From Azolla caroliniana (lineage: Eukaryota > Plantae > Polypodiophyta), in the NCBI GenBank assembly GCA_043228905.1, contig JBHGNT010000004.1, forward strand, positions 6,758,001 through 6,822,000: a stretch of 64,000 bases of DNA, in the 5' to 3' direction. Of this stretch, positions 534-64,000 are shown one piece after another. Each line of letters starts with the position of its first letter. Within the stretch, counting starts at the first letter, position 1. The position numbers were made by a program, and so were the translations under genes. Below the pieces are notes generated by a model that searched no databases, was not told the origin of the DNA, and worked only from the letters and a program-made list of their open reading frames with translations.

Positions 534-1897
534 CTTTGTGCGTGCGTGGAACACTGGGTTTTGAGCCAGATAAATACTGCTCATGTTGTCGCAGTAAAGG
601 GGAATCAAATCCTTGATGGGAACGCCCAGATCCTTCAATATCCTCTTGAGCCATATAGTTTCACATGCAGCCATGGCTACGCCCTTGTATTTGTTCTCTG
701 TGCTTGAAAGAGCGATAGTTGGTTGCTTCTTGCTACTCCACGAAATGCTTTGTTGCTGAGGGAGAAAACAAATCCGGAGGTCGATTGGCTCTGTAGCTAG
801 CCTAGTCGACATCTGTGTACCCTTTGGGTCGAATTGGTGTGGCTAATTCATAGAGAATGCCACAATCCATTGTGCCGCTCACGTATCGTAATACTCGCTT
901 AGCACAATCCAAATGGATTTCTTGCACAGTTTGCATGAATTGGCCGACCGGATAGCTGAGGTTGGGTCGAGTGATCGTGAGGTAGATGAGACTCCTGATT
1001 AGTTGTGGATACTGAGTCGGCTCGCACTCTTTCGTGCTAGGGTCGACATCCAGTTTGAGGTTTCGATTGAGAGGGGTTGCCACATATTTGCACTCAGTCA
1101 TCCATAACTTGTATAACAAGTTGAGGATGTAGTGTCGTTGGGAGATCATAATGCCTGTTGGAGTCCGAATTACCTCAATGCCAAGGAAGTAATCGAGCTC
1201 CTTCATGTTCGTCATCTCGAATTTTCTAGAGAGGAGGGACTTGACCTTGTTGATGTCAACTAGACTTGCACCTCTAATGACTAGATCATCCACATATAGG
1301 ATGATGACAATCGGGTTGTCAGAGCCATTTCATACGTAGAGGGAGTTGTCGGATTTCGACATTCGAAAGCTGATTTGATGAAGATATTGTGTTATCTTCG
1401 AGTGCCTAGCACGCGGTGCTTGCTTAAGGCCATAGAGTGGCTTCTTCAGTCGGTAGATTGCTTTCGGATGGATGCTCGATTCGAAGCTGGGTGGTTGTAC
1501 CATGTACACTTCCTCTTCTAATTCACCTTGAAGAAAGGCGTTCTTTACGTCCATTTGATGGAGGTGCCACCCTTTCGCTGCAGCAAGTGCAATTATGGTC
1601 CGCACAATCGTCATCTTTGTCACCGGAGCAAAGGTCATTTCGTAGTCGACTCCATGTGTTTGTGCGTATCCTTTCGCTACTAGTCAAGCTTTGTAGCAGT
1701 TTATGGAGCCATCGGCATTATACTTCACTTTTTAAATCCATTTGCAATTGATTGCCTTCTTGTACGGTGAGTGGGGAGTGAGATCCCATGTCTCGTTCTT
1801 GCATAGTGTCTGCATCTCCTCGTTCATTTCTTCGAATCATTGTGGATCCTTGCCTGCTTCCAAAAAACTTTCCAGTTCTTGAACTGTCGCCACCTTC

Positions 1898-1988
1898 TGT
1901 TGAAGACAAGGCCGTGTCGATGCGGAAGATCAAGTAGCATTCGATTGGGGTTGAGAACCTGCGTATGACAGTTTGCAAGATCGTGCAC

Positions 1989-2020
<32 letters not shown>

Positions 2021-2249
2021 GAGGCACAAAAGACTTTCTATTCAATAGAAACAATAACACAACCCACCCTACAAAAAGGTTACAAGGTCACTATATATAG
2101 TGACCGACTTAGGGCAACTACCATTTATGCTAATTACACAAATGGCCCAAACTTGATCTATACAAAGGGATAGTGTGAATACGTCCATTATACACTTGTA
2201 TTCGACACTCCCCCGTAATGGGCGTATACATGGGTTATCTAAGATTACA
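1898..2249 (-). mobile_element. 3' LTR (1898-2207) with PPT and short 3' internal stub of a second LTR element B, nested in element A
   Basis: Minus strand reads GGGGGAG (PPT, 2214-2208), then TGTCGAA...TTCAACA with imperfect terminal inverted repeats, a TATA-like TATATA and a (CT)n tract. Element A resumes immediately with GAAGGTGGCG (KVAT). Confidence 0.85.
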
Positions 2250-2274
2250 GGTTTAGGGTTTAGGGTTTAGGGTT
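2250..2274 (+). repeat. Interstitial plant telomeric repeat GG(TTTAGGG)3TT
   Basis: Read directly: ggtttagggtttagggtttagggtt. Confidence 0.9.
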
Positions 2275-3106
2275 CATCATAAAGGCATAATGGTATGCCA
2301 TATAATTGTTGTAACCGAATCGACTAACAAGATTCTTCTCACAGGTTGAGCGACAGAAATTTTCGTTTGTCGTGGCAATGGCTTTCTTTATGCCAGGTGT
2401 CCTCATGATAGGTAAATCGATGCCACCGAACTCACTGTCGAGGGGGTGAGTTGATTTGTTGCCGTCAAAGTGATCGTCTTCATATTCTGGCATTTTTGCC
2501 TTGCCTTTGTCCATCTTCGAACTACGCCGAGATGTGCTTTGGTCGCTCGGGAACTCTTGTGGATCACTAAGCCTTGTCGTAATCAGACTTTCATCGAACA
2601 TGTGTTTGAGTCGATCTCCATCTTCTATCTCTTGTTCAACGGATTTCGGGTCGACTATAAATGATTCAGGAGGAGTCATCTTGGGTTCGTACCATGATTC
2701 CGATTCATCGAAGACTACATCTCGACTCACACGAACCTTCCGAGTCGAGGGGTTATAGCACTTGTACCCCTTTTGTTCCAGTGAGTATCCTACGAGGATA
2801 CATTTCTCAGACTTCAGGTCAAGCTTTTGTCACTTCTCGTCGGGGATGTGCACGTATGCAATGCGAGAATGAACTTTCGGCCCTCTCTTCATCCACGAGC
2901 GATGAGTCGACCCTCTTTCTCGATGAAGCAACCGTCTTGATTAAATCGAACTTGCATCTTGTGCTCAACAATTTGACCAATGCAGACCAAAATCTTCGTA
3001 ATGGTAGGTACATGCAAGACATTCTTTTGTATGTTTGGTTACCTTCTCTACCGAATGGAACATTGTCGATGTGCCGAATCGGATGAGTAGTGTCATCTCC
3101 GGTTTC

Positions 3107-3430
3107 GACATAGTTGGCTCGATATGGCTCTCGAAGTTCTCATAACCATTCTTGATGAGACATCATATGGTTCGAGGCACCGAGAGTTGACGAACCATAC
3201 ATCTTCCGAACTAGAGGCAATATTCGCAGTAGAAGCCAACATAGAATTTGCTCTATGTCTCATCACGCGATATAGTTGGGTCGATATGGCTCTCGAAGTT
3301 CTCATAACCATTCTTGATGAGATGTCATACGGTTCAAGGCACCGAGAGTTGACAAACCATACATCTTCCGAACTAGAGGCAATATTCGCAGTAGAAGCCA
3401 ACACAGAATTTGCTCTATGTCTCATCACGA
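3107..3430. repeat. 162-bp tandem duplication within the gag-protease region of element A
   Basis: ORFs 3124..3444 and 3093..3434 each show a 54-aa repeat (MRHRANS.LASTANIASSSEDVWFVNS twice). Confidence 0.9.
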
Positions 3431-4969
3431 ACATTCTACCATGATCGTCATAGTCGGAGTTGGTGGCATAATTGGTGAGTTGTCGGCTTGTGGAAGCAAA
3501 CTCGCGCTTCTTCTTTCGGCACTCTTCTTCATGGTGGCTGATTTTGGCGCAATACCTGCATTTGATTGAGGGTTGTCGTCTCAGACCGGAATGGAAGCTC
3601 CCCTTCTTTCGAAGGTTCCTCGATGGCTTTCGTCTTGTTGCCGAAATTGGAAGTTGTTTTTGTAAGTCGGACCTCGTCCGCCTCGTCCTTGGCCAAATCG
3701 ACCTCTTGCTCGGTCACGTCCTCTTCCTTCGTTCGAATGTGTGTAGAGCATGTGGCCTTTCGAGGCGTTGCTCCTTCTTTGAACATGGTTTTCTTCAACC
3801 AACAACATGGATTGAAGATCGAAGAAAGAGGGAGGATTCTCTCGTGCTAGTACGACGGTCCTCATCGCACCGAACTGTGGTGCAAGGCTGCCGAGGCATA
3901 TTTGCACCATCTCATCATCCTCCACGTTGACGCTTATTGAGTCGAGCGAGTCATAAAGCTCCTTGATCTTCAAGGTGTAGCTTGTGATGGACACATCCTT
4001 TTGTTGGATGTTGTTCAGCTCTTGGTCGAGTTGAAGCTTTCATGCCGTCGTGTTGGCGACGAATATCGTCTTGAGATTCTCCCATGCTTCCTTCAGCGTC
4101 TCAGCTTCTCAAATGTAGCTGAGCATGTGGTCATGAACACATGTCGCAAAGCAATACATCACTCAGCTTGCCGCTTGCTCCCATGTTGAGTAGTCGACAT
4201 CTTTCGGGTCGGGTTGATTTTCTTGTGCTCCTTTGATGTAGCTCCAATAGCCTTTGCCGACAAGGTATTGGTGCATATTGTACTCCCAAGATGCAAAGTT
4301 GTTTCTATCCAACTTGTCTCTAGGGAGGGCGCTCCCCATTTGAGTATTCATTGTCGATGAAGATCTCATTCTTCTTTTCCTTCTTTCTCGAACACGAGCT
4401 ATGTAATTGCACTACAATAACAATGAAGCGGTTCTTCTTGAACGTCAGCGTAAAACACGACACACGTGGATGGGCTAGATCGAGCTACCAAACTACTCTA
4501 ATACCATGTAAAGAATCGGATATGATTCTTTTGCAACGGAAGAGATGTATGTTATGTGTGTGAGAGAAAAGAGGGGAGAGAAGAGAAAAACACAAGATAG
4601 ATAAAAGAGGAAATGAAGTACTCAAGAAAAAAGTATATATTCACAGGGAGAATATGAGATACAAAAATGTAGCATTACAAGAAGTCACAACTCACACTAT
4701 ATGAAGTAGGAGGAGGGTGCTTTATATAAGGTCACCCTCTTTCTTCATTAACTCACTACAACGTCCATTCTCTCTCTCTAGAACCTTGAGGAATGTGAAG
4801 ACTCATTAGTCAAGGGGAATATGGAACTAATTAGTTATGTGTCATAGAATATGATTCTATGGCACATAGTTAATGTGTAGAGAGTGATGTCACTCGTGAC
4901 CTTTGAGTGCTCATAGATTCTCAAAGGGTGTATTCACACACCATGTTAGGTTGAGCTTGATTCTCAACA

Positions 4970-14895: not shown

Positions 14896-17424
14896 CTATG
14901 AAGATGATGTGAGGTCATCATTGTAATAGATATGTATGAGAGGTAGATGGTAATCGGGGGTCAATCCAAGTGATACAAAGGTGTCTGATTCATCTGGGAT
15001 TCCGTTATCTTCTAAGGTCTTGTCCATATTCAAGTTAGTGAAAACCTTTTCATGAGTGACAACAATTCCTTTCCAAGTATAACTTTTTGCATGAGAATTT
15101 CGGTTTAAATAACGCTCAAGTATTTCTCGAATAGTTTCCTCACTCGGCACCTATATGTTTCATGTATGAATCAATGTTAGCTTGTTGCCATATGTAGGAA
15201 CTATACATCCAACAAGAAAACGAGATTTGTTTAAAAGGACCAGTGGTAATCTTTTATGTAAAGAGAACTTATGTTGATGTGAGCCATTAATGGGTCTTCT
15301 GAATATGAGCAATGCACATCTAAGAATGATGCTCAAGGAAATGTAGTTTACCTCAAGAGGAGCTTCCAAGCCCGTCAACACATTCTTTATTCGTACAAAC
15401 CGTGTCTTTCTACTAAGCTTTCCAATACAATATTTATTGTCCTTCCACCATGGAACTTCATAACTACAATCCCAATCTGTACGTGGAGTTCTTGGTGGTG
15501 GTATGTGTATGAACCTACCCTAACCACAAAAGAAATCATAAATTTATGTAAGAATCAATACATTGCGATACATGCTTTGAATGCTTGAGATGGTCTTGAG
15601 TGTTTCCAAGTGTTGTATGCGTAGTGGGGCATTCTTATTAATTCATAGAATCATCTAGCTTTGGTCTCGACTCACAATAAAGAAATATATCAGCACATGT
15701 TTTTCCTCAGCAATCCAGTTAACTTAAGACTTACATTGTTAAGGGTGCCATATGTTTTTTTAAACTCCTATGAATGCACACCTGAGGAGTATCATATGTG
15801 GGAAGTTTGGTTACAGGATCGATGGAAGATTTAACATCTTGGGTCGTCGCATCGAACCAATGACTGATATTTCCACCGGCTTCTACGAGAAGTGGCTATG
15901 AACATAAAAGAAGTAAATATTATAGATCTTCGGGTACACCCATCATCAAAATCATGGGTTCCTAAAATGCCATCAACAAAATCATGGGTTCCTAAAATGC
16001 CATCATCAAAATCATGGGTTCCTAAAATGCCATCATCAAAATCATGGGTTCCTACAATGCCATCCTCAAAATCATGGGTTCCTAAAATGCTAATAACAAA
16101 ATCATGGGGTTCCTATAATGCCATCATCAAAATCATGGGTTCCTAAAATGCCATCATCAAAATCATGGGTTCCTAAAATGGCACCATCAAAATCATGTTG
16201 TCCCTAAAATGCCATCATCAAAATCATGGGTTCCTAAAATGCCATCATCAAAATCACGGGTCCCTAAAATACCTTAATCAAAATCGTGGGTTCCTATAAT
16301 GCCATCATCAATCAAAATCATGGGTTCCTATAATGCCATCATCAAAATCATGTTGTCTCTAAAATGCCATCATCAAAATCATGGGTTCCTAAAATGCCTC
16401 ATCAAAATCATGTTTTCCCTAAAATACCATCATCAATCAATCAAAATCATGGGTTCTTAAATGCCATCATCAAAATCATGTTTTCCCTAAAATACCATCA
16501 TCAATCAAAATAATGGATTCCCAGAATGCCAACATCAAAATCATGGGTCCCTAAAATGGCACCATCAAAATCATGTTGTCCTTAAAATGCCATCATCAAA
16601 ATCATGGGTTCCTAAAATGCCATCATCAAAATCACGGGTCCCTAAAATGCCTTAATCAAAATCGTGGGTTCCAATAATGCCATCATCAATCAAAATCATG
16701 GGTTCCAATAATGCCATCATCAATCAAAATCATGGGTTCCAATAATGCCATCATCAATCAAAATCATGGGTTCCAATAATGCCATCATCAAAATCATGGG
16801 TTCCTAAAATGCCTAATCAAAATCATGTTTTCCCTAAAATACCATCATCAATCAAAATCATGGGTTCTTAAAATGCCATGATCAAAATCATGTTTTCCCT
16901 AAAATACCATCATCAATCAAAATAATGGATTCCCAGAATGCCAACATCAAAATAATGGGTCCCTAAAATGCCATCATCAAAATCATGTTGTCCCTAAAAT
17001 GCCATCATCAAAATCATGGGTCCCTAAAATGCCAACATCAAAATCATGGGTTCCTATAATGCCATCATGAATCAAAATCATGTTGTCCCTAAAATGCCAT
17101 CGTCAAATTCATGGGTCTCTAAAATGCCATCATCAAAATCATGGATTCCTATAATGCCATCATCAAAATCATAGGTTCCTAAAATGCCACCATCAAAATC
17201 AAAATCAAAATCAAGAGAAAGAGAAAGAGAAGATGTGTGGTGTAAAGGATCTGAATGAATTTGTAAACCTGGGCTAGATGGGGCGGGTAATTGGCGGTGG
17301 TGAGGAGTTGAGAGATGTCGAGGACATTGGCCAACACAATGAGCCAACAATCGGAGTGCGAGCAATGCTCCGCCACTTCTGCTTCTGTGTACCAACCACT
17401 GCTATTCCTCCTCTCACTCCCCAT
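14896..17424 (-). CDS. CYB5D1: Cytochrome b5 domain-containing protein 1 (axonemal radial-spoke heme protein); 4 exons, 230 aa
   Basis: Exons 17424-17269, 15895-15782, 15519-15352, 15150-14896; GT-AG; 693 nt in frame. Motifs YTEAEVAEH...[77 protein letters not shown]. Confidence 0.92.
15938..17212. repeat. ~30-bp minisatellite (consensus AAAATGCCATCATCAAAATCATGGGTTCCT), roughly 40 copies, filling CYB5D1 intron 1
   Basis: Head-to-tail array with variant units (CATGTTGTCCCT, extra ATCA) and no unique spacers. Confidence 0.97.
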
Positions 17425-32500: not shown

Positions 32501-33321
32501 CATCCAATCAACCAATCCAAAAGTGACCTTGTTTGGTTGTTATTAATAGGATCCATGCAACTAGATAACACTAGATGCACCTTTGTCAAGGTTGTCACCC
32601 CTACATCCTAATCTATGCCAAGTTTCACGTTCCTATTTCAGTAGAGGACAATAGCCAGATCCTTTGTAGTAACACATTGATTGACTCAATTGCAACATCT
32701 TGCTTCATCGATGTCTCTTATAGAGAGCAAGTTCCTATTTTGGTTGAGGTGTTTGATGGGAGACCTATCGACTTTGGCAAGATTCCTAGAGAGATGAATC
32801 AATTGGTTACCCGGGTCAACTCACATCAGGCGGAGATTACTCGTAATTGTTTTGATTCTCTCACTACCTTATTATCTACAAATTACCTTGGTTTGAAGTT
32901 CATAACGTGACGATAGATTAGAGATCTCAAGCCATCAATTTCACCCAACATGTTGCCAATCCCTAACGTATTACTTTCGGCTATAGACTGCAAAATTGTC
33001 CAAAAAGACCTACATAAACGTCGAGTTGTACTCTCCAAATATTTCCATGATAATCCTCTGGAACGTCGTCGGTGTCGTCTTGAGTCCGCAATGATGGATT
33101 GACGATGAATGTATATGGTGATGGAGATATTGTGGGGATGAGCATTGAGAAGCATTACAGGGTGATAGCATTATGTGCATTGAGAAGCATTGTGGGGTGG
33201 AGGATGGTGGCTAGAATGGCTCCACCCACCTCCCAAGGGGGTTCAACGTAAGGGAAGAGAGAGAGAGAAAGAGAGATGAAAAGACAGAGAGAGAAATCTT
33301 CCTTGTTTCATTCATTCCCCA

Positions 33322-36300
33322 TGTTGAGAGATCAAGCTCAACTTAGTTTAGTTAGTTAGTCAACAATGTAACTTCGTAGTTACCTAGATAGAATCTAGTT
33401 AGAAGTGTTGACTATAACGCCTTAAATAGGACCTTGTACTTAAGTGGGATATTCTAGATCCTCAAATCCTAAGTACATTTAATATAGGACTTATACATTA
33501 GTACCTATATTCTACTCACACATGTGCACCTTTGCACATGAGATGTATATATACCTCATTGTGGGTATTTTTGTATTTGATGATGTTTTATGATATACAC
33601 TCTAGTTTACTCATCCCCCATCTTGTGTTGTTCATAAGTATATATATATATCTTCCTCTCACACACATACACACACATATCACTTAATCTTCCGCTACGT
33701 AATCTCCTAACTTAATCACATAATTAGGTAATAATTATTCCTTAATTAATTACCTAATCCTTAACATGGTATCAGAGCGTGTGGTTTAGCATATCCACTA
33801 AGCCCACCCGAGACTTCGTGATTGTGTGTTCGAGACGCCGATGACAAAATCCGGCTATCGGCTACCATAGTGCCGCTACGTAGCACGTACACGTGATCGA
33901 AGGAAGAAAAACAAAAGAAGAGAAAACACAATCAACATGAACACACAAATGGGTAGCTCGCTCCCTAGCGAAAAGCTAGACCAGAGCAATTATTCATCTT
34001 AGGAGTACAAGATGACCCAATACCTCGTCAGCCAAGGGTATTGGAGCTACATCAACGACGCACTCGAGGACAAGCCCGACAACACAAACGCCAACTACCC
34101 AACGTGGGAGCAAGGAGCGATTCGGGTAATGTATTGCTTGGCAACATGTGTCCACGACCATATGCTTAGCCACATTCGAGACGCCAAGATGCCTAAAGAG
34201 GCGTGGGAGAACTTAAAGAAAATGTTCGCCACCAACACAACCGCCCGCAAACTTCAACTCTGGCAAGAGTTGAATAACATTCGGCAAAAAGACATGTCTG
34301 TGTCGGACTACACCGCCAAAATCAAGAGCATTTGTGACTCGCTTGGCTCCATCAACATCAACGTCGACGAAGACGAGATAGTTCAAGTATGCTTGGGCGG
34401 CCTGACACAACGATTTGATCCACTACGGACGACAATCTTGGCGAGAGAAAACCCTCATTCGTTCTTCGACCTCCAATCGATGTTATTGGTTGAAGAAAAC
34501 CATGTCCGAACCAAAAGCAAGGCACCAGAAGGAGAAATGTTCTTCTCGAATTCGGACGGTGGTCGAGGAAGAGGTCGTGGCGGTAGAAGAGGAAGCCATC
34601 GAGGAACCTTCGAAAGAAGGGGGAGCTTCCAAGCCGAACAAGGTCGGCAAATGAGGCCCACAACTTGCAATTATTGCGGCAAAATCGGCCACTATGAGGC
34701 GAAGTGTCGGAAGAAAAGAAGCGAGTCGGCGTCGACAAGCCGACAACTCACAAACTACGTCAACAACTCCGAATACAAGGATTACGGCGAACTATTCGTA
34801 ATGCGGCATAAAGCGAACTCTATGACGGCTTCCGATTCCGCAAGCATCTCCAATCCGGAAGACGTGTGGTTCGTAGATTCCAGCGCCTCACATCACATGA
34901 CATCCCACGAAGAGTGGTTTCACGATTTACGAACGCCGGATCGACCCGGCTTTATAGAGACGGGAAACGACACCACGCATCCCATTCGGCACATCGGCAA
35001 TGTCCCATTTGGGAAAGAAGGCGAGCAAACTTGCATCAAGAATGTCTTGCACGTACCCACAATAACAAAGAATTTGGTCTCGGTCGGCCAAATCGTGGAG
35101 CAAGGCATGCAAGTCCGCTTCACAAAAGAAGGATGCTTCATCAAGAAAGATGGTCGAGTCATAGCTAAGGGGCGGAGAGAAGGCCGAATGTTCATCCTCG
35201 ATTCGAACGAGGTGAAATCGGCAATGTACGCTAAAGGTCTCAAAAACAAGACGAACATCGAGTTGTGGCACAAAAGAATCGGCCACATCAACCTCCAACG
35301 GCTCCGAGCTATGCAAACAAAGCGAGTCGTCATCGGACTTTCGACATTCGAGTCGAAACGAGTTGACCGAGTATGCGAAGCGTGTCAACTCAGCAAACAA
35401 CATCAACTCCCATTCCCGAAGGAGAGCCACGCAAGCAAAGGCCTCCTCGACGTCATACACTCGGATGTATGGGGACAGGCTCAAACGCTGATGATCGGCG
35501 GATGCCGATACTACGTAACCTTCATCGACGACTACTCGCGTTACGCGTGGATCTACCCGATGAAGAAGAAGAGCGAAGTGTTCTCCCACTTCCAAAAGCT
35601 CAAGGGGCAAGTCAAAAAAGAAACCGGTCGGCAAATTCAATGCCTACGATCGAATGGAGGAAAGGAGTACTTCTCCGACGAATTCACCTCCTACCTCCAA
35701 AGTGAAGGCATCCGTAGAGAATTCTCATGCCGACACACACCCCAACAAAATGGAGTCGCCGAAAGGAAGAATCGGCAAATACTTGAGGTAGCACGTGCCA
35801 TGATGCATGAGAAGCACATGCCGAATTTCTATTGGGCCGAAGCGGCATCCACGGCCGTCTATCTCATGAACCAGTGCACCACCAATGGAGTCCATGAGCT
35901 AACTCCATATGAGTTCCTCATTGGAAGGAAGCCGATCCTGTCGCACCTCAAGGTGTTCAGAAGCATTGCGAATGTACGCATCCGGAACAAACAACGACAG
36001 AAGCCTGACCCAAAGTCAGAGAGATGTATTCTCGTAGGATACTCATCTGAGAAGAAGGCGTACAAGTGCTACAACCCGTCGACGCGAGAAGTTCGCGTAG
36101 GTCGAGACGTAGTCTTCGACGAGTCCGCATCCTGGTACGCACCAGAGACAACTACGACTCTGACTCTGCTCGACCCGGAATCCGCCGAACAAGAGGTAGA
36201 AGATGGAGATCGCTTTGAACACATGTTCGAAGAAAGTCCGATTACGGCAAAGCCTAGTGAGCCACAAGAGCCCCCACGCGACCCAAGCACGTCGCAGCCA

Positions 36301-37215
36301 AGTACAAACTTGGACAAAGGCAAAGGTAAGATGCCCGAATACGAAGTCAATCACCCCGACAACAATGATTCGGATAGATCGGCTCCCTCACTAGACAGTG
36401 AGTTTGGTGCACTCATCATGCCTACACCCGGAGTAAAGAAGGCGCTCACATCGGCGAGCAAAAAACTTCGACGCTCATCTAGAGCAAAGAACCCTGTCAC
36501 TCAGCACAGCTACAACGAGTACATGGCCCATCATTACGCCTTCGCGATGAAGGTAGCGTCCGAACAAGAGCCCAAGAGCTCCACCAAAGTGGCTTGTAAC
36601 CCACGATGGGTGGAAGTAGTCGACCTTCACCCACACACTACAAGCCTTTGTCACTGGCTTGAGGGGGAGGAACCGAGATTGCCACAACGAAGAAAGCCGA
36701 AGGTCGGACGGAAGCCACACAGAAGCCGACATCGAAAGCCGGACAACGCCGGATGTCGAACGCCTCACACTTGAGCTTGAGGGGGTGTGTTGAGAGATCA
36801 AGCTCAACTTAGTTTAGTTAGTTAGTCAACAATGTAACTTCGTAGTTACCTAGATAGAATCTAGTTAGAAGTGTTGACTATAACGCCTTAAATAGGACCT
36901 TGTACTTAAGTGGGATATTCTAGATCCTCAAATCCTAAGTACATTTAATATAGGACTTATACATTAGTACCTATATTCTACTCACACATGTGCACCTTTG
37001 CACATGAGATGTATATATACCTCATTGTGGGTATTTTTGTATTTGATGATGTTTTATGATATACACTCTAGTTTACTCATCCCCCATCTTGTGTTGTTCA
37101 TAAGTATATATATATATCTTCCTCTCACCCACACATCACATAATCTTCCGCTTAACTTAATCACATAATTAGGCACTAATTAACCCATACTTAATTACTT
37201 ACCTAATTCTTAACA
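33322..37215 (+). mobile_element. Two-LTR Ty1/copia element with TSD; gag-PR-IN present, RT and RNase H deleted (non-autonomous)
   Basis: TSD CCCCA (33317-33321 / 37216-37220). 5' LTR 33322-33766, PBS TGGTATCAGAGC 33767-33778, PPT ~36779-36785, 3' LTR 36788-37215. The 920-aa ORF has CNYCGKIGHYEAKC, WFVDSSASHHMT, LWHKRIGH, HSDVWG and GVAERKNR, and ends shortly after PRWVE. Confidence 0.97.
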
Positions 37216-37274
37216 CCCCATAAGGGGTTAAATAGTTACAAAAGGGTAGATACATAGGGGTGCAAGCCCCTTTG

Positions 37275-37530
37275 TCCATCAGCACGGCCATCAACAACCT
37301 CATTATCAGCAACACGATCAGTAGCACGATCAGCAACACAATCAGCCGCGCAATCATCAACATAATCAACAACACAATCAACATCCTCATGATCAGAAGC
37401 ATTATCAGCAAGAGGATCAGCAACCTCGTGATAAATAGGAGAATATGTTGCAACATCGTGGCCATCGACATCACGATCAGCAGCAGGAGAGGCACAGTCA
37501 ACAACAGGAGAAGCTCGATTTGCAACAAGA
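37275..37530. repeat. Degenerate short-period ATCAGCAAC/ATCAACAAC-type repeat
   Basis: Repeated ATCA(G/A)CA(A/G)C words produce low-complexity I/N/S or L/I/M translations. Confidence 0.7.
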
Positions 37531-48295: not shown

Positions 48296-49784
48296 CACCA
48301 TCGCCTCCTGCCTCTGCTTCTGTTCCTGCTTCGTCTTCTTCATCTGCTTCTGCTTCTGCTTCTGCTTCTTCGTCTCCAGCTCCCATGGCTTCCTCCGCTC
48401 TTCAGGGCCGCCATCATAGATCCACAGATTCCTTCTACACACACCTCCCCCCGCAGCTTCAGCAACGCCGCCTCCTCCTCATATATCCCTCCCACCCTCC
48501 CACTCCCACTCCTCCTCTTCAATCCCTCCATCCCTCCTCCTCCTCTTCTTCTTCTTTTGGATCTCTCCCTCTCACCAACACCTTACCTCCTCCTCCTCCA
48601 TCATCATCATCATTTCCTTCTTCTTCTTCTTCTTCTTCTTCTTCTTCTTCTGATGACCTTCCTCCTAGCTTCTGCTGTATTAATGCCCAAGGTCCTCATG
48701 ATTCTTCACCTGCCAAGTCCATGTCTTCAGCAGCCTTATCTGGCATCGTTCATCACCAGACCTTCGAATCATCCTCGTTTGAGTCTTCTTCTTCTTCTGG
48801 TTTCGAGTCTTCTGGTTTCAAGTCTATGTCTTCAGCAGCCTTATCTGGCATCATTCATCATCGAAACTTCGAATCATCCTCGTTTGAGTCTTCTTCTTCT
48901 TCTGGTTTCGAGTCTTCCATCTCCAATGATGACTCGGAAGAAGACGAAATATCGTCATCGTCTTCACAAACCCTTCCTCCTCCATGCCCGTCCCAGCAGA
49001 ATCAGAATGAACCTCTAGAGAATCTCAACTCTCTCTCTTCTGCGCTTCCTATCAAGTGAGTCCTCTGGTTCAAACCCTCATTCTGCCATTTTTGAGGCAT
49101 TATATAATCTTGAATCTTATGCGCAACGTTTTTAGTTTCATTAATCAATTTTGCAATCGCAATCAGTTCATCTGGAACTTGATGGTACCAAGCAGCCGTT
49201 TTCTTGATTCAGATATTAATTAAATGATACCGTGATTGAATCAGATGAAATTTTTACCGGATCCCATTTCACTCGGGACTCAGGCATTGACTAGACCATA
49301 TGCAAGTTTAATTTGGAAGCAACCGATCTGTGTGCGCTGTATTAATTACTGATTTGCTTTCACTTTCTTGTATAATTTGCCTCTTTGCAGGAGAGGATTA
49401 TCTCGCTATTTCTCTGGAAAATCTCAGTCATTTTCTTGCATGAGCCGTGCTGCTTCCATAGCTGATCTGGCGAAACCTGAGAATCCATTTAATATGAAGG
49501 CAAAGAGACGCAAAACAGGAGGATCAAGGAAGAACAGCGGTAACATTATGAGTTGCAAAAATTCTCAAGATGATGATAATGATGATGCTGATGATGAAGA
49601 AGAAGAGAATCATCATCATCACCACCACCATTCTTATCCTCCAAGAAAACCAGGCACGAAATTGCATGTGAAGTTTCATCAACCTGATTACCAAATGAAC
49701 CATAGCCAGCTTCTTCACAATAACAAGATGATAAAGTCATTGTCTTCCAAATGCGTTTCTGTTCCTGAACTCCAAGAAACATGA
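48292..49784 (+). CDS. OXIDATIVE STRESS 3 (OXS3)/O3L-like protein with Ser/Pro-rich N-terminus; 2 exons
   Basis: Exon 1 ends at 49055 and exon 2 spans 49391-49784 (GT-AG). Family motif L.SLSSALPIKRGLSRYFSGKSQSF.....A....DLAKPENP.N.K.KRRK spans the junction. Start codon uncertain (48292 or 48385). Confidence 0.85.
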
Positions 49785-51617: not shown

Positions 51618-53690
51618 TCAAAGCATTGAATTCCATGCACCTTTCTTGACTCTTAGAGCTTCTACCTCTTCGGCCTCTTCTTGCATGCCGGCGCTCACAT
51701 AAATATTACTCATACAAACATAGGCTGCCGCATCCTTTTCATCCAACTGTATAGCATTTTCAAAGGCTAACCTTCCAATCTTTAGATTTAGGCCCTTTTG
51801 ACAAGCACCTAATATAATGTGCCATATTGTAAGGCTACCGCAATATGGCATTTCTTCAATTAACATCATTGCCTTTTCAACTTGTCCTGCTCGCCCCAGG
51901 AGATCAACCATACATGTGTGATGCCCGAAAGTGCGAATAACACCATAGCATGTGCTCATTATCTCGAAGTACATCTGACCTTTATCTAATAAGCCAGAAT
52001 GATTGCATGCATTAAGAACAAGTGTGAGTGTGACCATGTCTGGCTCCTTACCTTGTTCCATCATTCTGTGAAACATGTAAAAAACGGTTGTATCCATCCC
52101 AAGGAGAGCATAGCCAGCAATTAATGCCGTCCACGAGACCAAATCCTGCACTGACAGCTTATCAAACACACTTTGTGCTTCTTCAGACATTCCAAAATTT
52201 GCATACATGTCTATCAATGCATTTCCAATCACAGTACCTTCTTCTAGCATACCATCCTTGATAATGCTCGCGTGTACTTCTTTGCCTTTGTCGGAAGCTC
52301 CTAGGTTACCACATGCTTTCAAGATGGAAATCAAGGTTGCTTCATCGGGAGAGAAGCCATCATGTAGCATTTGATCAAAACAATTGAGTGCTTCTTCACC
52401 ATATGCATGGTTAGCATATCCAGAAATAAGCACACTCCACACGACAACATCCCGAAGTGGAAGCTCATCAAACACCTCTTGTGCTTTTGAAAGTATTCCA
52501 CTTTTTGCATACATGTCCACCAATGCAGTGCCAATCATGATATGTCCAGTGAGACGCTTTCTGATAATCTCTCCATGTATTTCTCTTCCTTTCTCAGTTG
52601 CTCCTATGTTGCCACATGCTTTCAAGCTACATGAATATGTGCCTGTATCTGGGGACACTCCCTCAGATTGCATTTGAACAAAATACTTCAATGCCACCAT
52701 GGAATGCCCATGCCGGATATAACCTGAAATGAGCACATTCCATGAGACCACATCTCGGTCTGGCAAGGTATCAAATAGTTGTTGTGCTTTTCCAAGGAGG
52801 CCACACTTAGCATACATGTCTACCAATGCATTGCCAAGTATACTACTTTTGGCCAATAATCCATCTCTAACAACCTTGGCATGGATGTCTTCTCCCTTAT
52901 CAACATCTCCAGAGGCCCCGCATGCTTTCAAGACACATGCAAATGTAACTGCATTCGGAGAGAAGCCTTTATCTTGCATCTGAGAAAAACACTTCAATGC
53001 TGCCTCGTTGTGTCCGTGGATGGCATATCCTGAAATGAGAGCTGTCCATGAGATCACATCCAACATCGGGAGTTCGTCAAATACCTCTTGTGCTTTCTCA
53101 AGGACGCCACATTTAGCATACATATCTACCAATGCATTACCGATTATATTGTTCTTTTGCAACAAACCCTCTTTGAGTATCATGGAGTGTATCTCTCGGC
53201 CCTTATCAAATGCTCCTATGTTTCCACAAGCTTTCAGTATACACACAAAAGTAATCGCACTAGGAGAAAAACCATCTCTTTGCATCTTTTCGAAAGACAC
53301 AAGAGCTTCCTCACCATATCCATGGTGGGAATATCCAGCGATTAGTGTAGACCAAGAAACGAGGGTCCGAACTTTCAACTCATCAAAGACATCGCGTGCT
53401 TTCGAAAGCTCGCCACATTTCGCATACATATTGATCAATGAGTTACCAACAAAGATGTTGTTTTGGAGAAGACCTTTTTTATGGATATCAGCATGTATTT
53501 GGATGCCTTTGTGGATATCTTTTCTGTTAGCACAATCCTTGAGTGATGCTACCAAAGTACGCCCAATAATAGTGTCATCATCCCTCTGGCTAGTATTACT
53601 GGCTCTTTCTTCTCCTCTTTGTTCTTTATAATTCACATCACTTGCTTTTCTTCCATTTATCACTCCCATCACTCTGTCTCTCCGCTGCAT
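51618..53690 (-). CDS. PLS-class pentatricopeptide repeat protein with E domain and no DYW (organellar RNA-editing factor type), 690 aa
   Basis: Repeating triplets GNALVDMYAKCG....A..VFD / VSW.ALI.GY..HG / P..TF.C.LKACG. C-terminal HTCMVDLLGRAG...W..ILGAC...AAAYVCMSNIY; ends KKGAWNSML. Confidence 0.96.
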   Translation of the reverse strand: MQRRDRVMGVINGRKASDVNYKEQRGEERASNTSQRDDDTIIGRTLVASLKDCANRKDIHKGIQIHADIHKKGLLQNNIFVGNSLINMYAKCGELSKARDVFDELKVRTLVSWSTLIAGYSHHGYGEEALVSFEKMQRDGFSPSAITFVCILKACGNIGAFDKGREIHSMILKEGLLQKNNIIGNALVDMYAKCGVLEKAQEVFDELPMLDVISWTALISGYAIHGHNEAALKCFSQMQDKGFSPNAVTFACVLKACGASGDVDKGEDIHAKVVRDGLLAKSSILGNALVDMYAKCGLLGKAQQLFDTLPDRDVVSWNVLISGYIRHGHSMVALKYFVQMQSEGVSPDTGTYSCSLKACGNIGATEKGREIHGEIIRKRLTGHIMIGTALVDMYAKSGILSKAQEVFDELPLRDVVVWSVLISGYANHAYGEEALNCFDQMLHDGFSPDEATLISILKACGNLGASDKGKEVHASIIKDGMLEEGTVIGNALIDMYANFGMSEEAQSVFDKLSVQDLVSWTALIAGYALLGMDTTVFYMFHRMMEQGKEPDMVTLTLVLNACNHSGLLDKGQMYFEIMSTCYGVIRTFGHHTCMVDLLGRAGQVEKAMMLIEEMPYCGSLTIWHIILGACQKGLNLKIGRLAFENAIQLDEKDAAAYVCMSNIYVSAGMQEEAEEVEALRVKKGAWNSML

Positions 53691-54477: not shown

Positions 54478-54800
54478 CATGAAAATTTTCATAAACTATA
54501 TAGCTTCTCTTGTGTCTCCCATTCAGTGATTCGAAGCGAGAGAGGGGGCAAATACACCTCAAAGACTTGGGCGATCACAATTTTTATGAAAATTTTCATA
54601 AACTATATAGCTTCTCTTGTGTCTCCCATTCAGTGATTCGAAGCGAGAGAGGGGGCAAATACACCTCAAAGACTTGGGCGATCACAATTTTTATGAAAAT
54701 TTTCATAAACTATATAGCTTCTCTTGTGTCTCCCATTCAGTGATTCGAAGCGAGAGAGGGGGCAAATACACCTCAAAGACTTGGGCGATCACATTTTTTT
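54478..54800. repeat. Three near-identical 107-bp tandem repeats, plus a looser ~110-bp duplication at ~54280-54475
   Basis: ATGAAAATTTTCATAAACTATATAGC...GGGCGATCACA x3; ORF-track starts 54510, 54617 and 54724 are spaced by 107. Confidence 0.95.
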
Positions 54801-56270: not shown

Positions 56271-56813
56271 GACTAATAGTGAAGAGTGGCAGTGGCGAAA
56301 CGAGAACTTAGTGTGGAGGAGCGTAGGAAGTGAAGCACGAGTTATGTTTTGCAACAAGTACCATGGTAGCCAAAGTCTTATATGGTTTGTCAACCAAATT
56401 AAAATAGTAATAGAGTGATATTCTTACCAATTTTACTCTCAATTCCAAGAAGTTGGGTGATTTGAGTGTGACTTGTGCATTTAGGCCCTTTCGACATCTT
56501 CAACTAGAATAACTCTTTCTACAAAATGTATGCCAAAGAGTTTAATACTACACAATGACACATAGGTGTCCTAGCTTTTTCTGCAACTTCGTTGAAGAAG
56601 TTTTGTTGAACACAACGTCTTTGATTTGTAGAGGAAGCTAGAGTCATATGGTGCTCATAATCATCATCTTTTGCTTGAAAATGTTTCCAATCATTGAGTA
56701 AAACCTAACCCTAATATTGATGATGATGATTATGATGATGTGCCAATATATATGTATATCTTTGCTCTTTTGGGGGTCCTTTGGCCACCCAAGCCAAGCC
56801 AACCATAACTAGG

Positions 56814-56854
<41 letters not shown>

Positions 56855-56875
56855 GAGAGAACAGAGCATTCAATG

Positions 56876-56943
<68 letters not shown>

Positions 56944-56944
56944 G

Positions 56945-58193
56945 GATGCTTGTGTGGAACCAATTTGCATTGGCTTTCGGATTACATATTAATTGGAGGA
57001 AGTATAGTCTCATATCATGTACTGAAAGGGATTTGGAATGTTTAGGATGGCAAGGATCCATGGTGAAGAAAGGCTCTATTTTTCAACACTTGGGCTATGC
57101 ATTAAGAATGAATGTTACAAATGGTCAATTGATAGAACAGATGTCTAGTAAGTTGAGGGATAAGTTCATGTATTGGAAATCACAATCTTGGCCATTTCAT
57201 GTATGTTTGAAGGTTGTACAATGTATTATGGAACCTATGATATTATATTACTTGCCATTGCTGCTATGGACAAAGAAGGCTTTGTATTCTATTTTGCAAC
57301 CTCTTCGATATTTGTGGTGGAAGAAAAGGGATAAGATGGGAATCACTTGGGTTGCATGGAATCATCTAGCAACTCCTAAGCGCTTGGGGGGAGCTAGAGT
57401 ATTGAACTTATCTAAGCATATGATGGCTCGTAGATTTTCATTATTACAAGACATGTGTTCAAACTCACAACCATGGATATCTATTGTTCAATATTTCATT
57501 GAGAACAAGGGTTTAACACATGGGAGGACAACAATTAAGGCTTCATGGTGGCAATTACTAAATGAATGTATTTCACTTAGGATTCTGGGCTCTACATGTG
57601 TTCAACACTTGGTTACCTCATGGCAAGAAGCACTCTTGTTATGTGTATGGAAACCATTATCTAGTAGAGAGCATTGTAATTCTTTGCAAAAAGAGTTACT
57701 TGTGTCTTCTCGGTTATTATGTTGGCCAGGAAAGGAGAGATTACACTCTCAATTTAATCGTTTGTTTCGTTTGGGGGTCAAAGAGGTGGGAGATATAGTT
57801 GAGGGTCCATCTCAAAGAATTTTGGAGTTTGTTGAAGCACGACAATTATTACGCATTTCGTCTAATTATGGGTTTATTTGGCAACAACTACAAAATATTC
57901 CATTGGTGCAAGGTCCCTTACCTCTACAAATAGGAGAACAATCGTGGATTGATTGGTGTTTAAAGCGTCAAACATCATTGTTACAAGTGACTACTAATCT
58001 TTTGTATCATTGCTCTATTGAGTCTCTTGGATGGTTATTAGGGGGTTATCATCTAAGGCTGAAGAAGAATGGAGATTACACAAATATGATCATGGGTGGT
58101 GGCAAATCTTACAACGTAGTTGGCATTCTAAATTGCCACTTGTAGCAAAGGTCTTCATTTGGAGAGTTTTGATTGGAGGATTGCCTTTGGGAT
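56945..58193 (+). mobile_element. Plant L1 LINE ORF2 C-terminal remnant, preceded by (CA)n/(GA)n and interrupted by a copia insertion
   Basis: FALAFGLHINWRK, VAWNHLATPKRLGG..VLNL, and W.....P...KVFIWR.L.GGLP (zf-RVT-like, after a frameshift). Confidence 0.8.
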
Positions 58194-62979
<4,786 letters not shown>

Positions 62980-63275: not shown

Positions 63276-64000
63276 CTGCTCACTTAGCTCCCACTAAGTG
63301 GAAAACCAGAAAAATGAGTAACAACATACAGCCAGCAGCACTAAACAGTTTGCCCTAAGTCATATTTATACACATATGACTTTCGGACTATTTACAAATA
63401 TAGCTTCAAAGGGCTCTTGGAAAACATATTCACAAATACGTCCCCGCATCCGGATCTCTCTCCGGGTACATTCGTCATCCGGCTCCGTAGCCGGGTCTTC
63501 ATCATCCGGTTCCGAAACCGGGTCTTCATCATCCGGTTCCGTAACCGGGTCTTCATCATCCGGTTCCGTAACCGGGTCTTCATCATCCGGTTCCGATACC
63601 GGGTACTCCTCATTCGGGTCTTCATTCCCGATTCCCGGACATCTGACCATCCCATCAGGAGGGACCGTAATCCCAACAAACTCCCCCTTCACTTCGGCAT
63701 GGGATGTCTTTCCAGTCCGACCCTCTTCCGGCATGCTTCCAGCTTGTCGGGTGTGAGCACCTTGGTCAGCATATCCGACCCGTTCTCGTCCGTGTGGATC
63801 TTCGTCAGCACGAACTCCTTGTCTTCTATCCTTTCCCGGATCCAGTGGTATCTACGCTGGATGTGTTTCGTCCGGGAATGGTAGGCCGCGTTCTTCGCAA
63901 GGTGGATGGCACTCTGACTATCGCAGTAGAGCCGGTACTCCTCCTGCCGGATACCAAGCTCTCTAATGAAGTCCTTCATCCATATTATTTCCTTGCCGGC
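62980..64000 (-). mobile_element. 3' end of a nested copia element (Tork/Tnt1-like): RNase H, PPT, 3' LTR 63678-62980
   Basis: YCDSQSAIHLAKNAAYHSRTKHIQRRYHWIRE...DMLTKVL. PPT GAAGGGGGAG-TT, then TGTTGGG...TTTAACA. Flank CGAAG at 62975-62979. 27-bp repeats at ~63470-63630. Confidence 0.93.

What the first reader, a model, noticed from the sequence alone, without database searches (positions are those of the whole stretch)
33322..37215. Copia insertion whose two LTRs are identical for 341 bp and then carry two different U5 ends
Seen: 33322-33662 and 36788-37128 match base for base by eye, including the (TA)n tract. The remaining 104 bp and 87 bp differ by several indels and many substitutions, yet both end in TTAACA and the element has a perfect CCCCA TSD. 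Established: normal reverse transcription makes both LTRs identical, and later drift is spread along the LTR. Inference: minus-strand strong-stop DNA primed on one RNA (source of the 3' U5) jumped to a different co-packaged RNA and copied through that RNA's own U5. The resulting U5 heteroduplex in the 5' LTR was then resolved after integration. This would be a direct fossil of heterodimer packaging, with the 3' U5 identifying the helper element. LTR-divergence dating would badly overestimate the age of this copy.
Basis: partly seen in the sequence, partly recalled or inferred. Interest (0 to 1): 0.8.

Follow-up and report, generated by a model that had tools for sequence, protein, structure and literature searches.

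The report
Copia copy with mismatched U5 ends
A non-autonomous plant jumping gene has terminal repeats that match for 341 bases and then end in two different family variants; it was likely pieced together from two family members during copying and its matching part likely re-equalised later, so it is a rare one-off scar of known processes, not a new kind of element.

Summary
Observation confirmed: LTRs identical for 341 bp, then 9 substitutions and 3 indels; single-copy CCCCA target duplicated. Both U5s are established family haplotypes. The pattern is a singleton: 0 of 54 other TSD-matched pairs have discordant U5s. The element is a subfamily mosaic: 5' U5, first leader bases and gag-protease are 'Y' type; mid-leader, 3' end, U3 and 3' U5 are not. 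Two co-packaged RNAs would explain this (about 50%); ectopic conversion of the 5' U5 fits almost as well (about 30%). The 3' U5 marks no helper: all six paired copies with it lack RT, like the rest of the family. The copy does not look young: neutral decay near family level, no relative above 94% internally, private U3 alleles in both LTRs only. The 341-bp identity is therefore more likely later 3'-to-5' gene conversion than youth, and naive LTR dating (about 2%) equals the family mean. Long reads and RNA ends were not available. The scan noted similar U3-same/U5-different elements in other genomes (AI notes, unchecked).

The parts
33317..33321 (+). Left target-site duplication CCCCA
   Evidence: single copy in empty paralogues of the host repeat
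33322..33766 (+). 5' LTR (445 bp)
33322..33662 (+). 341-bp block identical in both LTRs (U3 and probably R); non-Y type; 4 private alleles shared by both copies; allele at 33640 linked to the 3'-type U5
33546..33553 (+). TATA-like TATATATA; the start site is inferred about 30 bp downstream and was not mapped
   Evidence: motif seen; function inferred
33663..33766 (+). 5' U5, 'Y' subfamily haplotype with 11-bp insertion; one private base
33767..33778 (+). Primer-binding site TGGTATCAGAGC (initiator tRNA-Met type, recalled)
33767..33813 (+). First leader stretch, Y type, contiguous with the 5' U5
33832..33932 (+). Mid-leader, non-Y type
33937..36774 (+). gag-protease-integrase frame without RT/RNase H; one in-frame stop at 34000-34002, no frameshift
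34068..35319 (+). Y-type block (gag, protease, start of integrase)
36247..36787 (+). Non-Y 3' internal region with purine tract at about 36779-36785
36788..37215 (+). 3' LTR (428 bp)
37129..37215 (+). 3' U5, '3' haplotype; last 79 bp identical to 3 other sampled LTRs; 10-bp deletion at the boundary
37216..37220 (+). Right target-site duplication CCCCA

Best explanation
The two U5 ends are different pre-existing family variants that were likely brought together when reverse transcription used two co-packaged RNAs from different subfamilies, and the 341-bp identity likely reflects a later copying of the 3' LTR onto the 5' LTR. Shown: the haplotype origin of both U5s, the Y/non-Y mosaic, neutral decay, and no close parent in the assembly. 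Inferred steps: (1) Minus-strand strong-stop DNA was primed on a non-Y RNA (allele 319, 3'-type U5) and jumped to a 3' end with the x-type U3. (2) Minus-strand synthesis switched onto a Y-type RNA for protease-gag, back for the mid-leader, and onto the Y RNA again before the PBS; that RNA's 5' end was still intact, so synthesis ran on into its U5. (3) Second-strand transfer left a U5 heteroduplex in the 5' LTR that was fixed as Y type. An intermolecular second transfer, as proposed for HIV-1, would give a similar product. (4) RT was supplied in trans, because the family lacks it. (5) After decay in place, an intra-element conversion from 3' to 5' LTR erased the U3/R differences and stopped at the first large heterology. 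Conditional on steps 1-4, I put step 5 at about 65%, a recent insertion from two decayed templates whose parents are missing from the assembly at about 25%, and assembly homogenisation at about 10%.
For: U5 differences are family polymorphisms: 9 haplotype-type, 1 private; 12/12 diagnostic columns for each U5. Paint of the element: Y at 33792-33813 and 34068-35319, non-Y at 33832-33932 and from 36247. Two templates account for all blocks, whereas one contiguous conversion tract does not. Copies combining Y U5, Y first leader, Y gag and the same protease sub-haplotype exist (L121, L142, L146, and L098 and L276 at most sites), and L121 differs at 0 of 33 polymorphic U5 sites. Allele 319 goes with the 3'-type U5 (6 of 7 vs 10 of 170) and with 0 of the 43 LTRs carrying the Y insertion. 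Block mosaics are common in the family, as in Onsen (PMC5668417, section 6 part 1 read). For age: 7 synonymous, 21 non-synonymous, 1 stop among rare codon changes, the same as 79 other copies (26% synonymous). Load is 33 per 1000 codons, 9th lowest of 80. Best relatives: 97% (U3), 94% (leader/gag), 94% (gag), 92% (3' end). The private U3 word occurs twice and the private 5' U5 word once in the genome. P(0 U3/R substitutions) is 0.5-1% under the family's distribution.
Against: It is a singleton (1 of 55 pairs), so no polarity can be tested within the family. It needs two rare events. The 5' LTR keeps the 3'-linked allele 319 and the (TA)n tract up to position 341, so simple run-through to the 5' end of a Y RNA does not give the present sequence without early transfer, patchy repair or later conversion. 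Signs of youth: 1 stop and 0 frameshifts in 876 codons, the fewest disablements among 42 copies (others: mean 5.5 stops), and low decay in the Y block (2nd-3rd lowest of 24). Internal load does not track LTR divergence (rho 0.02, n=37; rho 0.21, n=45), so it is a weak clock. L182, with 2 U3/R substitutions, also has no relative above 94%, so a missing parent is not special to this copy. Linkage counts are not independent, because copies are related and were picked by likeness to the window.
Confidence: 0.5

Rival explanations
1. The element was born with matching LTRs (x-type U3, allele 319, 3'-type U5). Later an ectopic gene conversion from a Y-type copy replaced the 5' U5, PBS and first leader bases (about 150-170 bp, or a longer patchy tract into gag), and an intra-element conversion equalised U3.
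For: The 3' LTR is a coherent first-transfer-type recombinant whose 3' part is a natural haplotype. The Y stretch is contiguous from U5 across the PBS to 33813, as a conversion tract would be. Intra- and inter-element LTR conversion are reported in plants (PMC7251063, passages read).
Against: A random donor would have to be of the same minority subfamily as the element's gag (40 Y-gag copies sampled; the gag search falls to 86% identity within 40 hits). A single long tract leaves the non-Y mid-leader unexplained. No haplotype-discordant tract was found in 38 other TSD-matched LTR pairs (maximum 2 such differences). No donor carries the private 5' U5 base.
Confidence: 0.3
2. A single recent retrotransposition from two decayed templates, exactly, so that the U3 identity is original. 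This is the young sub-case of the best explanation; its probability is counted inside that 0.5.
For: 0 differences in 341 bp including a microsatellite; fewest disablements of 42 copies; old members can be re-mobilised (PMC5668417, section 6 part 1).
Against: No parent for any of four segments; private words are unique to this locus. No recent activity seen: nearest-neighbour distance is at least 6.1% in all 109 of 113 sequences with enough overlap, and 0 of 48 full-length LTR pairs have an identical U3/R. Of 20 copies sampled from the candidate RT-bearing family, the 10 with a detectable direct repeat showed 90-99.6% identity, none 100%.
Confidence: 0.12
3. Assembly or polishing artefact that equalised U3 or joined alleles.
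For: No long read was available; no listed contig spans the element.
Against: 48 other pairs in the same assembly keep their U3/R differences. The TSD is intact and the internal region is unique (at least 6.7% from any sampled copy). A collapse would not create two distinct U5 haplotypes.
Confidence: 0.08
4. DNA-level re-expansion of a solo LTR: a 1-LTR circle or cDNA of a Y-U5 mosaic element recombined into a resident solo LTR (which survives as the 3' LTR), with conversion across U3.
For: One event gives identical U3s with shared private alleles, different U5s, an intact TSD and no remaining donor. Solo LTRs are present (18 of 179 sampled LTRs).
Against: It needs excision and homologous re-entry of a circle, which I recall as rare in plants. 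No donor solo LTR with the private 5' U5 base was found.
Confidence: 0.07

Closest known systems
Reverse-transcription recombination between co-packaged family members, Onsen/Copia78 (PMC5668417: abstract, passages and section 6 part 1 read; review PMC6894440: passages read)
   Same: Pairwise mosaics, LTR breakpoints near R and internal switches; old or defective members take part.
   Different: In those accounts the product has two identical LTRs (PMC6894440 passages); here U5 differs between the ends. I did not see the Onsen figures or supplements, which may show non-identical pairs.
Intermolecular second-strand transfer model for HIV-1 recombinants (Cappy et al. 2017, PMC5651808: introduction, start of results and discussion part 1 read)
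   Same: Two RNAs, 5' and 3' body of different origin, and a provirus whose ends are discordant, resolving to a U3/R breakpoint in the next cycle.
   Different: Inferred from circulating recombinants, uses plus-strand strong-stop DNA from the second RNA; here the discordance is confined to U5 in a plant Copia copy.
Gene conversion between LTRs of plant retrotransposons (Jedlicka et al. 2020, PMC7251063: passages read)
   Same: Possible converted tracts of 100-1000 bp in up to 25% of LTR pairs, mostly intra-element, which distort LTR dating.
   Different: It does not by itself explain why the unconverted part holds two different family haplotypes.
Non-autonomous Ty1/Copia families
   Same: TG...CA LTRs, 5-bp TSD, tRNA PBS, purine tract, copia-type gag and integrase upstream of where RT would lie.
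   Different: The family keeps gag-protease-integrase and lacks RT/RNase H; its lineage within Copia and its helper were not identified.

Membership tests
Ty1/Copia LTR retrotransposon (non-autonomous) | Direct LTRs with TG...CA ends and a 5-bp TSD | tested here: met
Ty1/Copia LTR retrotransposon (non-autonomous) | PBS and polypurine tract next to the LTRs | tested here: met
   (tRNA identity recalled, not tested)
Ty1/Copia LTR retrotransposon (non-autonomous) | Copia-type gag and integrase directly after the protease region | tested here: met
   PF14223, PF22936, PF13976, PF00665 (just under its cut-off), PF25597
Autonomous Copia | RT-RNase H downstream of integrase | tested here: not met
RT-born discordant-LTR recombinant | Each LTR variant is a pre-existing family haplotype | tested here: met
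RT-born discordant-LTR recombinant | All blocks explained by two templates; 5' U5 concordant with the 5' body | tested here: met
   (mid-leader needs two extra switches)
RT-born discordant-LTR recombinant | Boundary at the mapped R/U5 junction | not testable with these tools
   no RNA run holds the stretch; start and poly(A) sites unmapped
RT-born discordant-LTR recombinant | Discordance present from insertion (orthologs) or parents identifiable | tested here: inconclusive
   no parent in the assembly; junction contigs not seen among the pieces listed
Intra-element LTR gene conversion | Identity tract much longer than age allows, sharing private alleles | tested here: met
   341 bp vs a maximum of 278 in 38 pairs; 4 of 4 private alleles shared vs 25% in other pairs; P0 0.5-1%
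Intra-element LTR gene conversion | Unconverted state seen in other individuals | not testable with these tools
   no orthologous assemblies or long reads

The most novel reading that the evidence does not exclude
A plant Copia copy preserves a direct fossil of heterodimer reverse transcription in which the minus strand ran past the PBS into the U5 of a second, unprimed RNA. Elements can thus be born with U5-only LTR discordance, a polarity that could be counted genome-wide as a readout of RNA co-packaging.
Probability: 0.35. Interest if true: 0.45.

Novelty: new member of a known kind. Interest (0 to 1): 0.25.

Why it matters
It is a clear example of LTR dating failing in both directions within one element: U3 says zero age, U5 says about 10%, and neither is a clock. 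If U5-polar discordance with the 5' U5 matching gag proves recurrent across genomes, it would show that the 'two identical LTRs at birth' rule has a regular exception and give a fossil test of second-strand transfer. In this family it is rare (1 of 55), so its effect on dating is small.

Tried and rejected
Helper tagging by the 3' U5: rejected. A family-wide U5-confined pattern: rejected, 0 of 54 other pairs (38 of them also by alignment columns). Random post-insertion drift in U5: rejected, since 9 of 10 scored differences are family polymorphisms. Chimera of two loci: rejected, TSD intact. Derivation from an active, selected lineage: rejected, synonymous share equals neutral. Perfect TSD as a sign of youth: uninformative, 35 of 54 others are perfect. 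Public runs: no RNA holder listed and only short contigs. Laying X1-X4 could not phase the LTRs. Laying X1, X2, X3, X12 on the 3' junction listed no bridging piece among those shown (448 more not shown), and the flank is itself a repeat, so presence or absence in other samples is open. The 3' junction motif had 0 matches in metagenome contigs. A ninth batch of 20 family loci could not be fetched, so the pair survey stops at 55. Dropped before counts: pairs with TSD under 4/5 (6 of 44); pairs without two full LTRs or with under 270 aligned bases (6 of 54); 4 of 113 sequences lacking overlap. The first motif for the U3 'Y' class did not work and was not used. Literature: nine searches returned no paper describing U5-only discordance at birth in a plant retrotransposon; the library lacks most subscription papers, and I read no supplements.

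Full report
Observation. The element spans 33322-37215 between two CCCCA copies. Its LTRs are identical for exactly 341 bp and then differ by 9 substitutions and indels of 10, 11 and 4 bp. The contrast is not chance (0/338 vs 9/84; p=3.4e-7). It sits in another high-copy repeat whose uninterrupted paralogues carry one CCCCA, so the TSD is genuine. It encodes copia-type gag, a protease-region domain and integrase, with one in-frame stop at 34000-34002 and no RT.

Family. The genome holds a large family (1400-3600 first-look candidates per query; only the best 40 were scored each time). I fetched loci chosen by likeness to the window, so the sample is biased. It gave 179 distinct full LTRs and finally 55 pairs with TSD at least 4/5, the window included. 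The family looks old: 48 full pairs differ at 2.5% of U3/R sites (mean 8.4, minimum 1), and nearest-neighbour internal distance is at least 6.1% in all 109 sequences with enough overlap. It is RT-less: a tblastn with the RT of the window's second Copia hit 3 of 45 internals, all long ones with nested inserts.

Origin of the U5s. Both are established haplotypes. Nine of the ten scored differences outside the microsatellite are family polymorphisms, against at most 2 in 38 other TSD-matched pairs. By six motif calls the window is discordant at 6 of 6, and the other 54 pairs at no more than 1. The last 79 bp of the 3' U5 equal three other LTRs; the 5' U5 has one private base found nowhere else.

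Which end is foreign. The allele at LTR position 319, present in both LTRs, goes with the 3'-type U5 in 6 of 7 other carriers against 10 of 170 non-carriers, and with none of 43 LTRs bearing the Y insertion (copies are related, so the p-value overstates). The 3' LTR is thus continuous across the boundary and the 5' LTR is the junction. Upstream, the 265-285 block is of a type never seen with allele 319 in 29 other LTRs, which places an older breakpoint between 286 and 318, where a first strand transfer would fall if the start site lies about 30 bp after the TATA-like box at 33546 (inferred). Painting the body gives Y at 33792-33813, non-Y at 33832-33932, Y at 34068-35319 and non-Y from 36247. 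Natural copies joining Y U5, Y first leader and Y gag-protease exist, and L121 differs at 0 of 33 U5 sites. Two templates explain every block. Such block mosaics are common in the family, as in Onsen (PMC5668417).

Age. Rare codon changes are 7 synonymous, 21 non-synonymous and 1 stop, the same neutral spectrum as 79 other copies; the load is 9th lowest of 80. The internal region has 37 rare alleles in 3021 bp with no consistent sharer. U3 has 4 private alleles, a normal single-LTR load (mean 4.2), but all 4 are in both LTRs (25% shared elsewhere). No relative exceeds 97% in U3 or 94% inside, and a private U3 word occurs only in these two LTRs. Zero U3/R substitutions has probability 0.5-1% under the family's spread. 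Against this, the copy has the fewest stops and frameshifts of 42, low decay in its Y block, internal load is a poor clock, and L182 with near-identical LTRs also lacks a parent. A candidate RT-bearing family with other LTRs showed no identical repeat pair in 20 copies (10 with a detectable repeat, 90-99.6%), a small sample. On balance the 341-bp identity is more likely a later 3'-to-5' conversion that stopped at the 10-bp deletion than a sign of youth. Naive whole-LTR divergence is about 2% (9 in about 420), close to the family mean, so 'badly overestimated age' is not shown.

Mechanism. Most likely (0.5): discordance at birth from two co-packaged RNAs, by minus-strand run-on past the PBS of an unprimed Y RNA or by intermolecular second transfer (PMC5651808), with RT in trans, then probably U3 conversion. 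Main rival (0.3): ectopic conversion of the 5' U5 and first leader bases plus U3 conversion (PMC7251063). Artefact and solo-LTR re-expansion are minor. Public contigs could not phase the LTRs or type the site.

Novelty. Each ingredient is known. Canonical accounts give identical LTRs even after intermolecular first transfer (PMC6894440), and my nine searches found no report of U5-only discordance at birth in a plant element, within a library that omits most subscription papers. Earlier scan notes describe similar elements in other genomes; they are unchecked leads, and one pointed me to PMC5651808. As a singleton whose route cannot be fixed without orthologs, it scores 0.25.

Noticed in passing
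TSDs of sampled elements: Of 17 TSDs with one mismatch, 16 are transitions. Eight lie at the base that forms a CHG context with the LTR's own terminus (left copy C to T before TG; right copy G to A after CA), suggesting the LTR ends create methylation-driven TSD decay.
   Followed up: partly
window about 58700-62400: A second, broken Copia 67-72% identical to this element that retains RT pieces and belongs to a large family with other LTRs; a candidate helper lineage, old in the 20 copies sampled.
   Followed up: partly
window about 33088-33321 and 37216-37279: The host site is another high-copy repeat, often in pairs 2-9 kb apart (probably an LTR of another family); right of it lies a frame resembling the region upstream of a Copia RT (recalled, no Pfam hit).
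   Followed up: partly
L138, L195: TSD-matched elements with 24 and 29 U3/R substitutions, nearly all private: older or locally hypermutated copies, not haplotype chimeras.
   Followed up: partly
L182, L235, L092, L119/L290: Long identical LTR runs (245-278 bp) or 1-2 substitutions despite ordinary internal decay; possible partial LTR conversions.
   Followed up: partly
L039, L045: LTRs with internal duplications: L039 repeats the region around positions 265-345 and has a (TA)n tract like the window's before a 3'-type U5; L045 has a tandem duplication in U5.
   Followed up: no
window 15898-17231: 30-bp tandem array of about 40 units; also 107-bp x3 at 54479-54799, 105-bp x2 at 48700-48909, about 306-bp x5 at 52100-53452 and 27-bp repeats at 63444-63620.
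   Followed up: no
window 56739-58145: 468-codon open frame starting in (CA)n/(AG)n repeats whose later part looks like a LINE RT C-terminal region (recalled, not tested).
   Followed up: no
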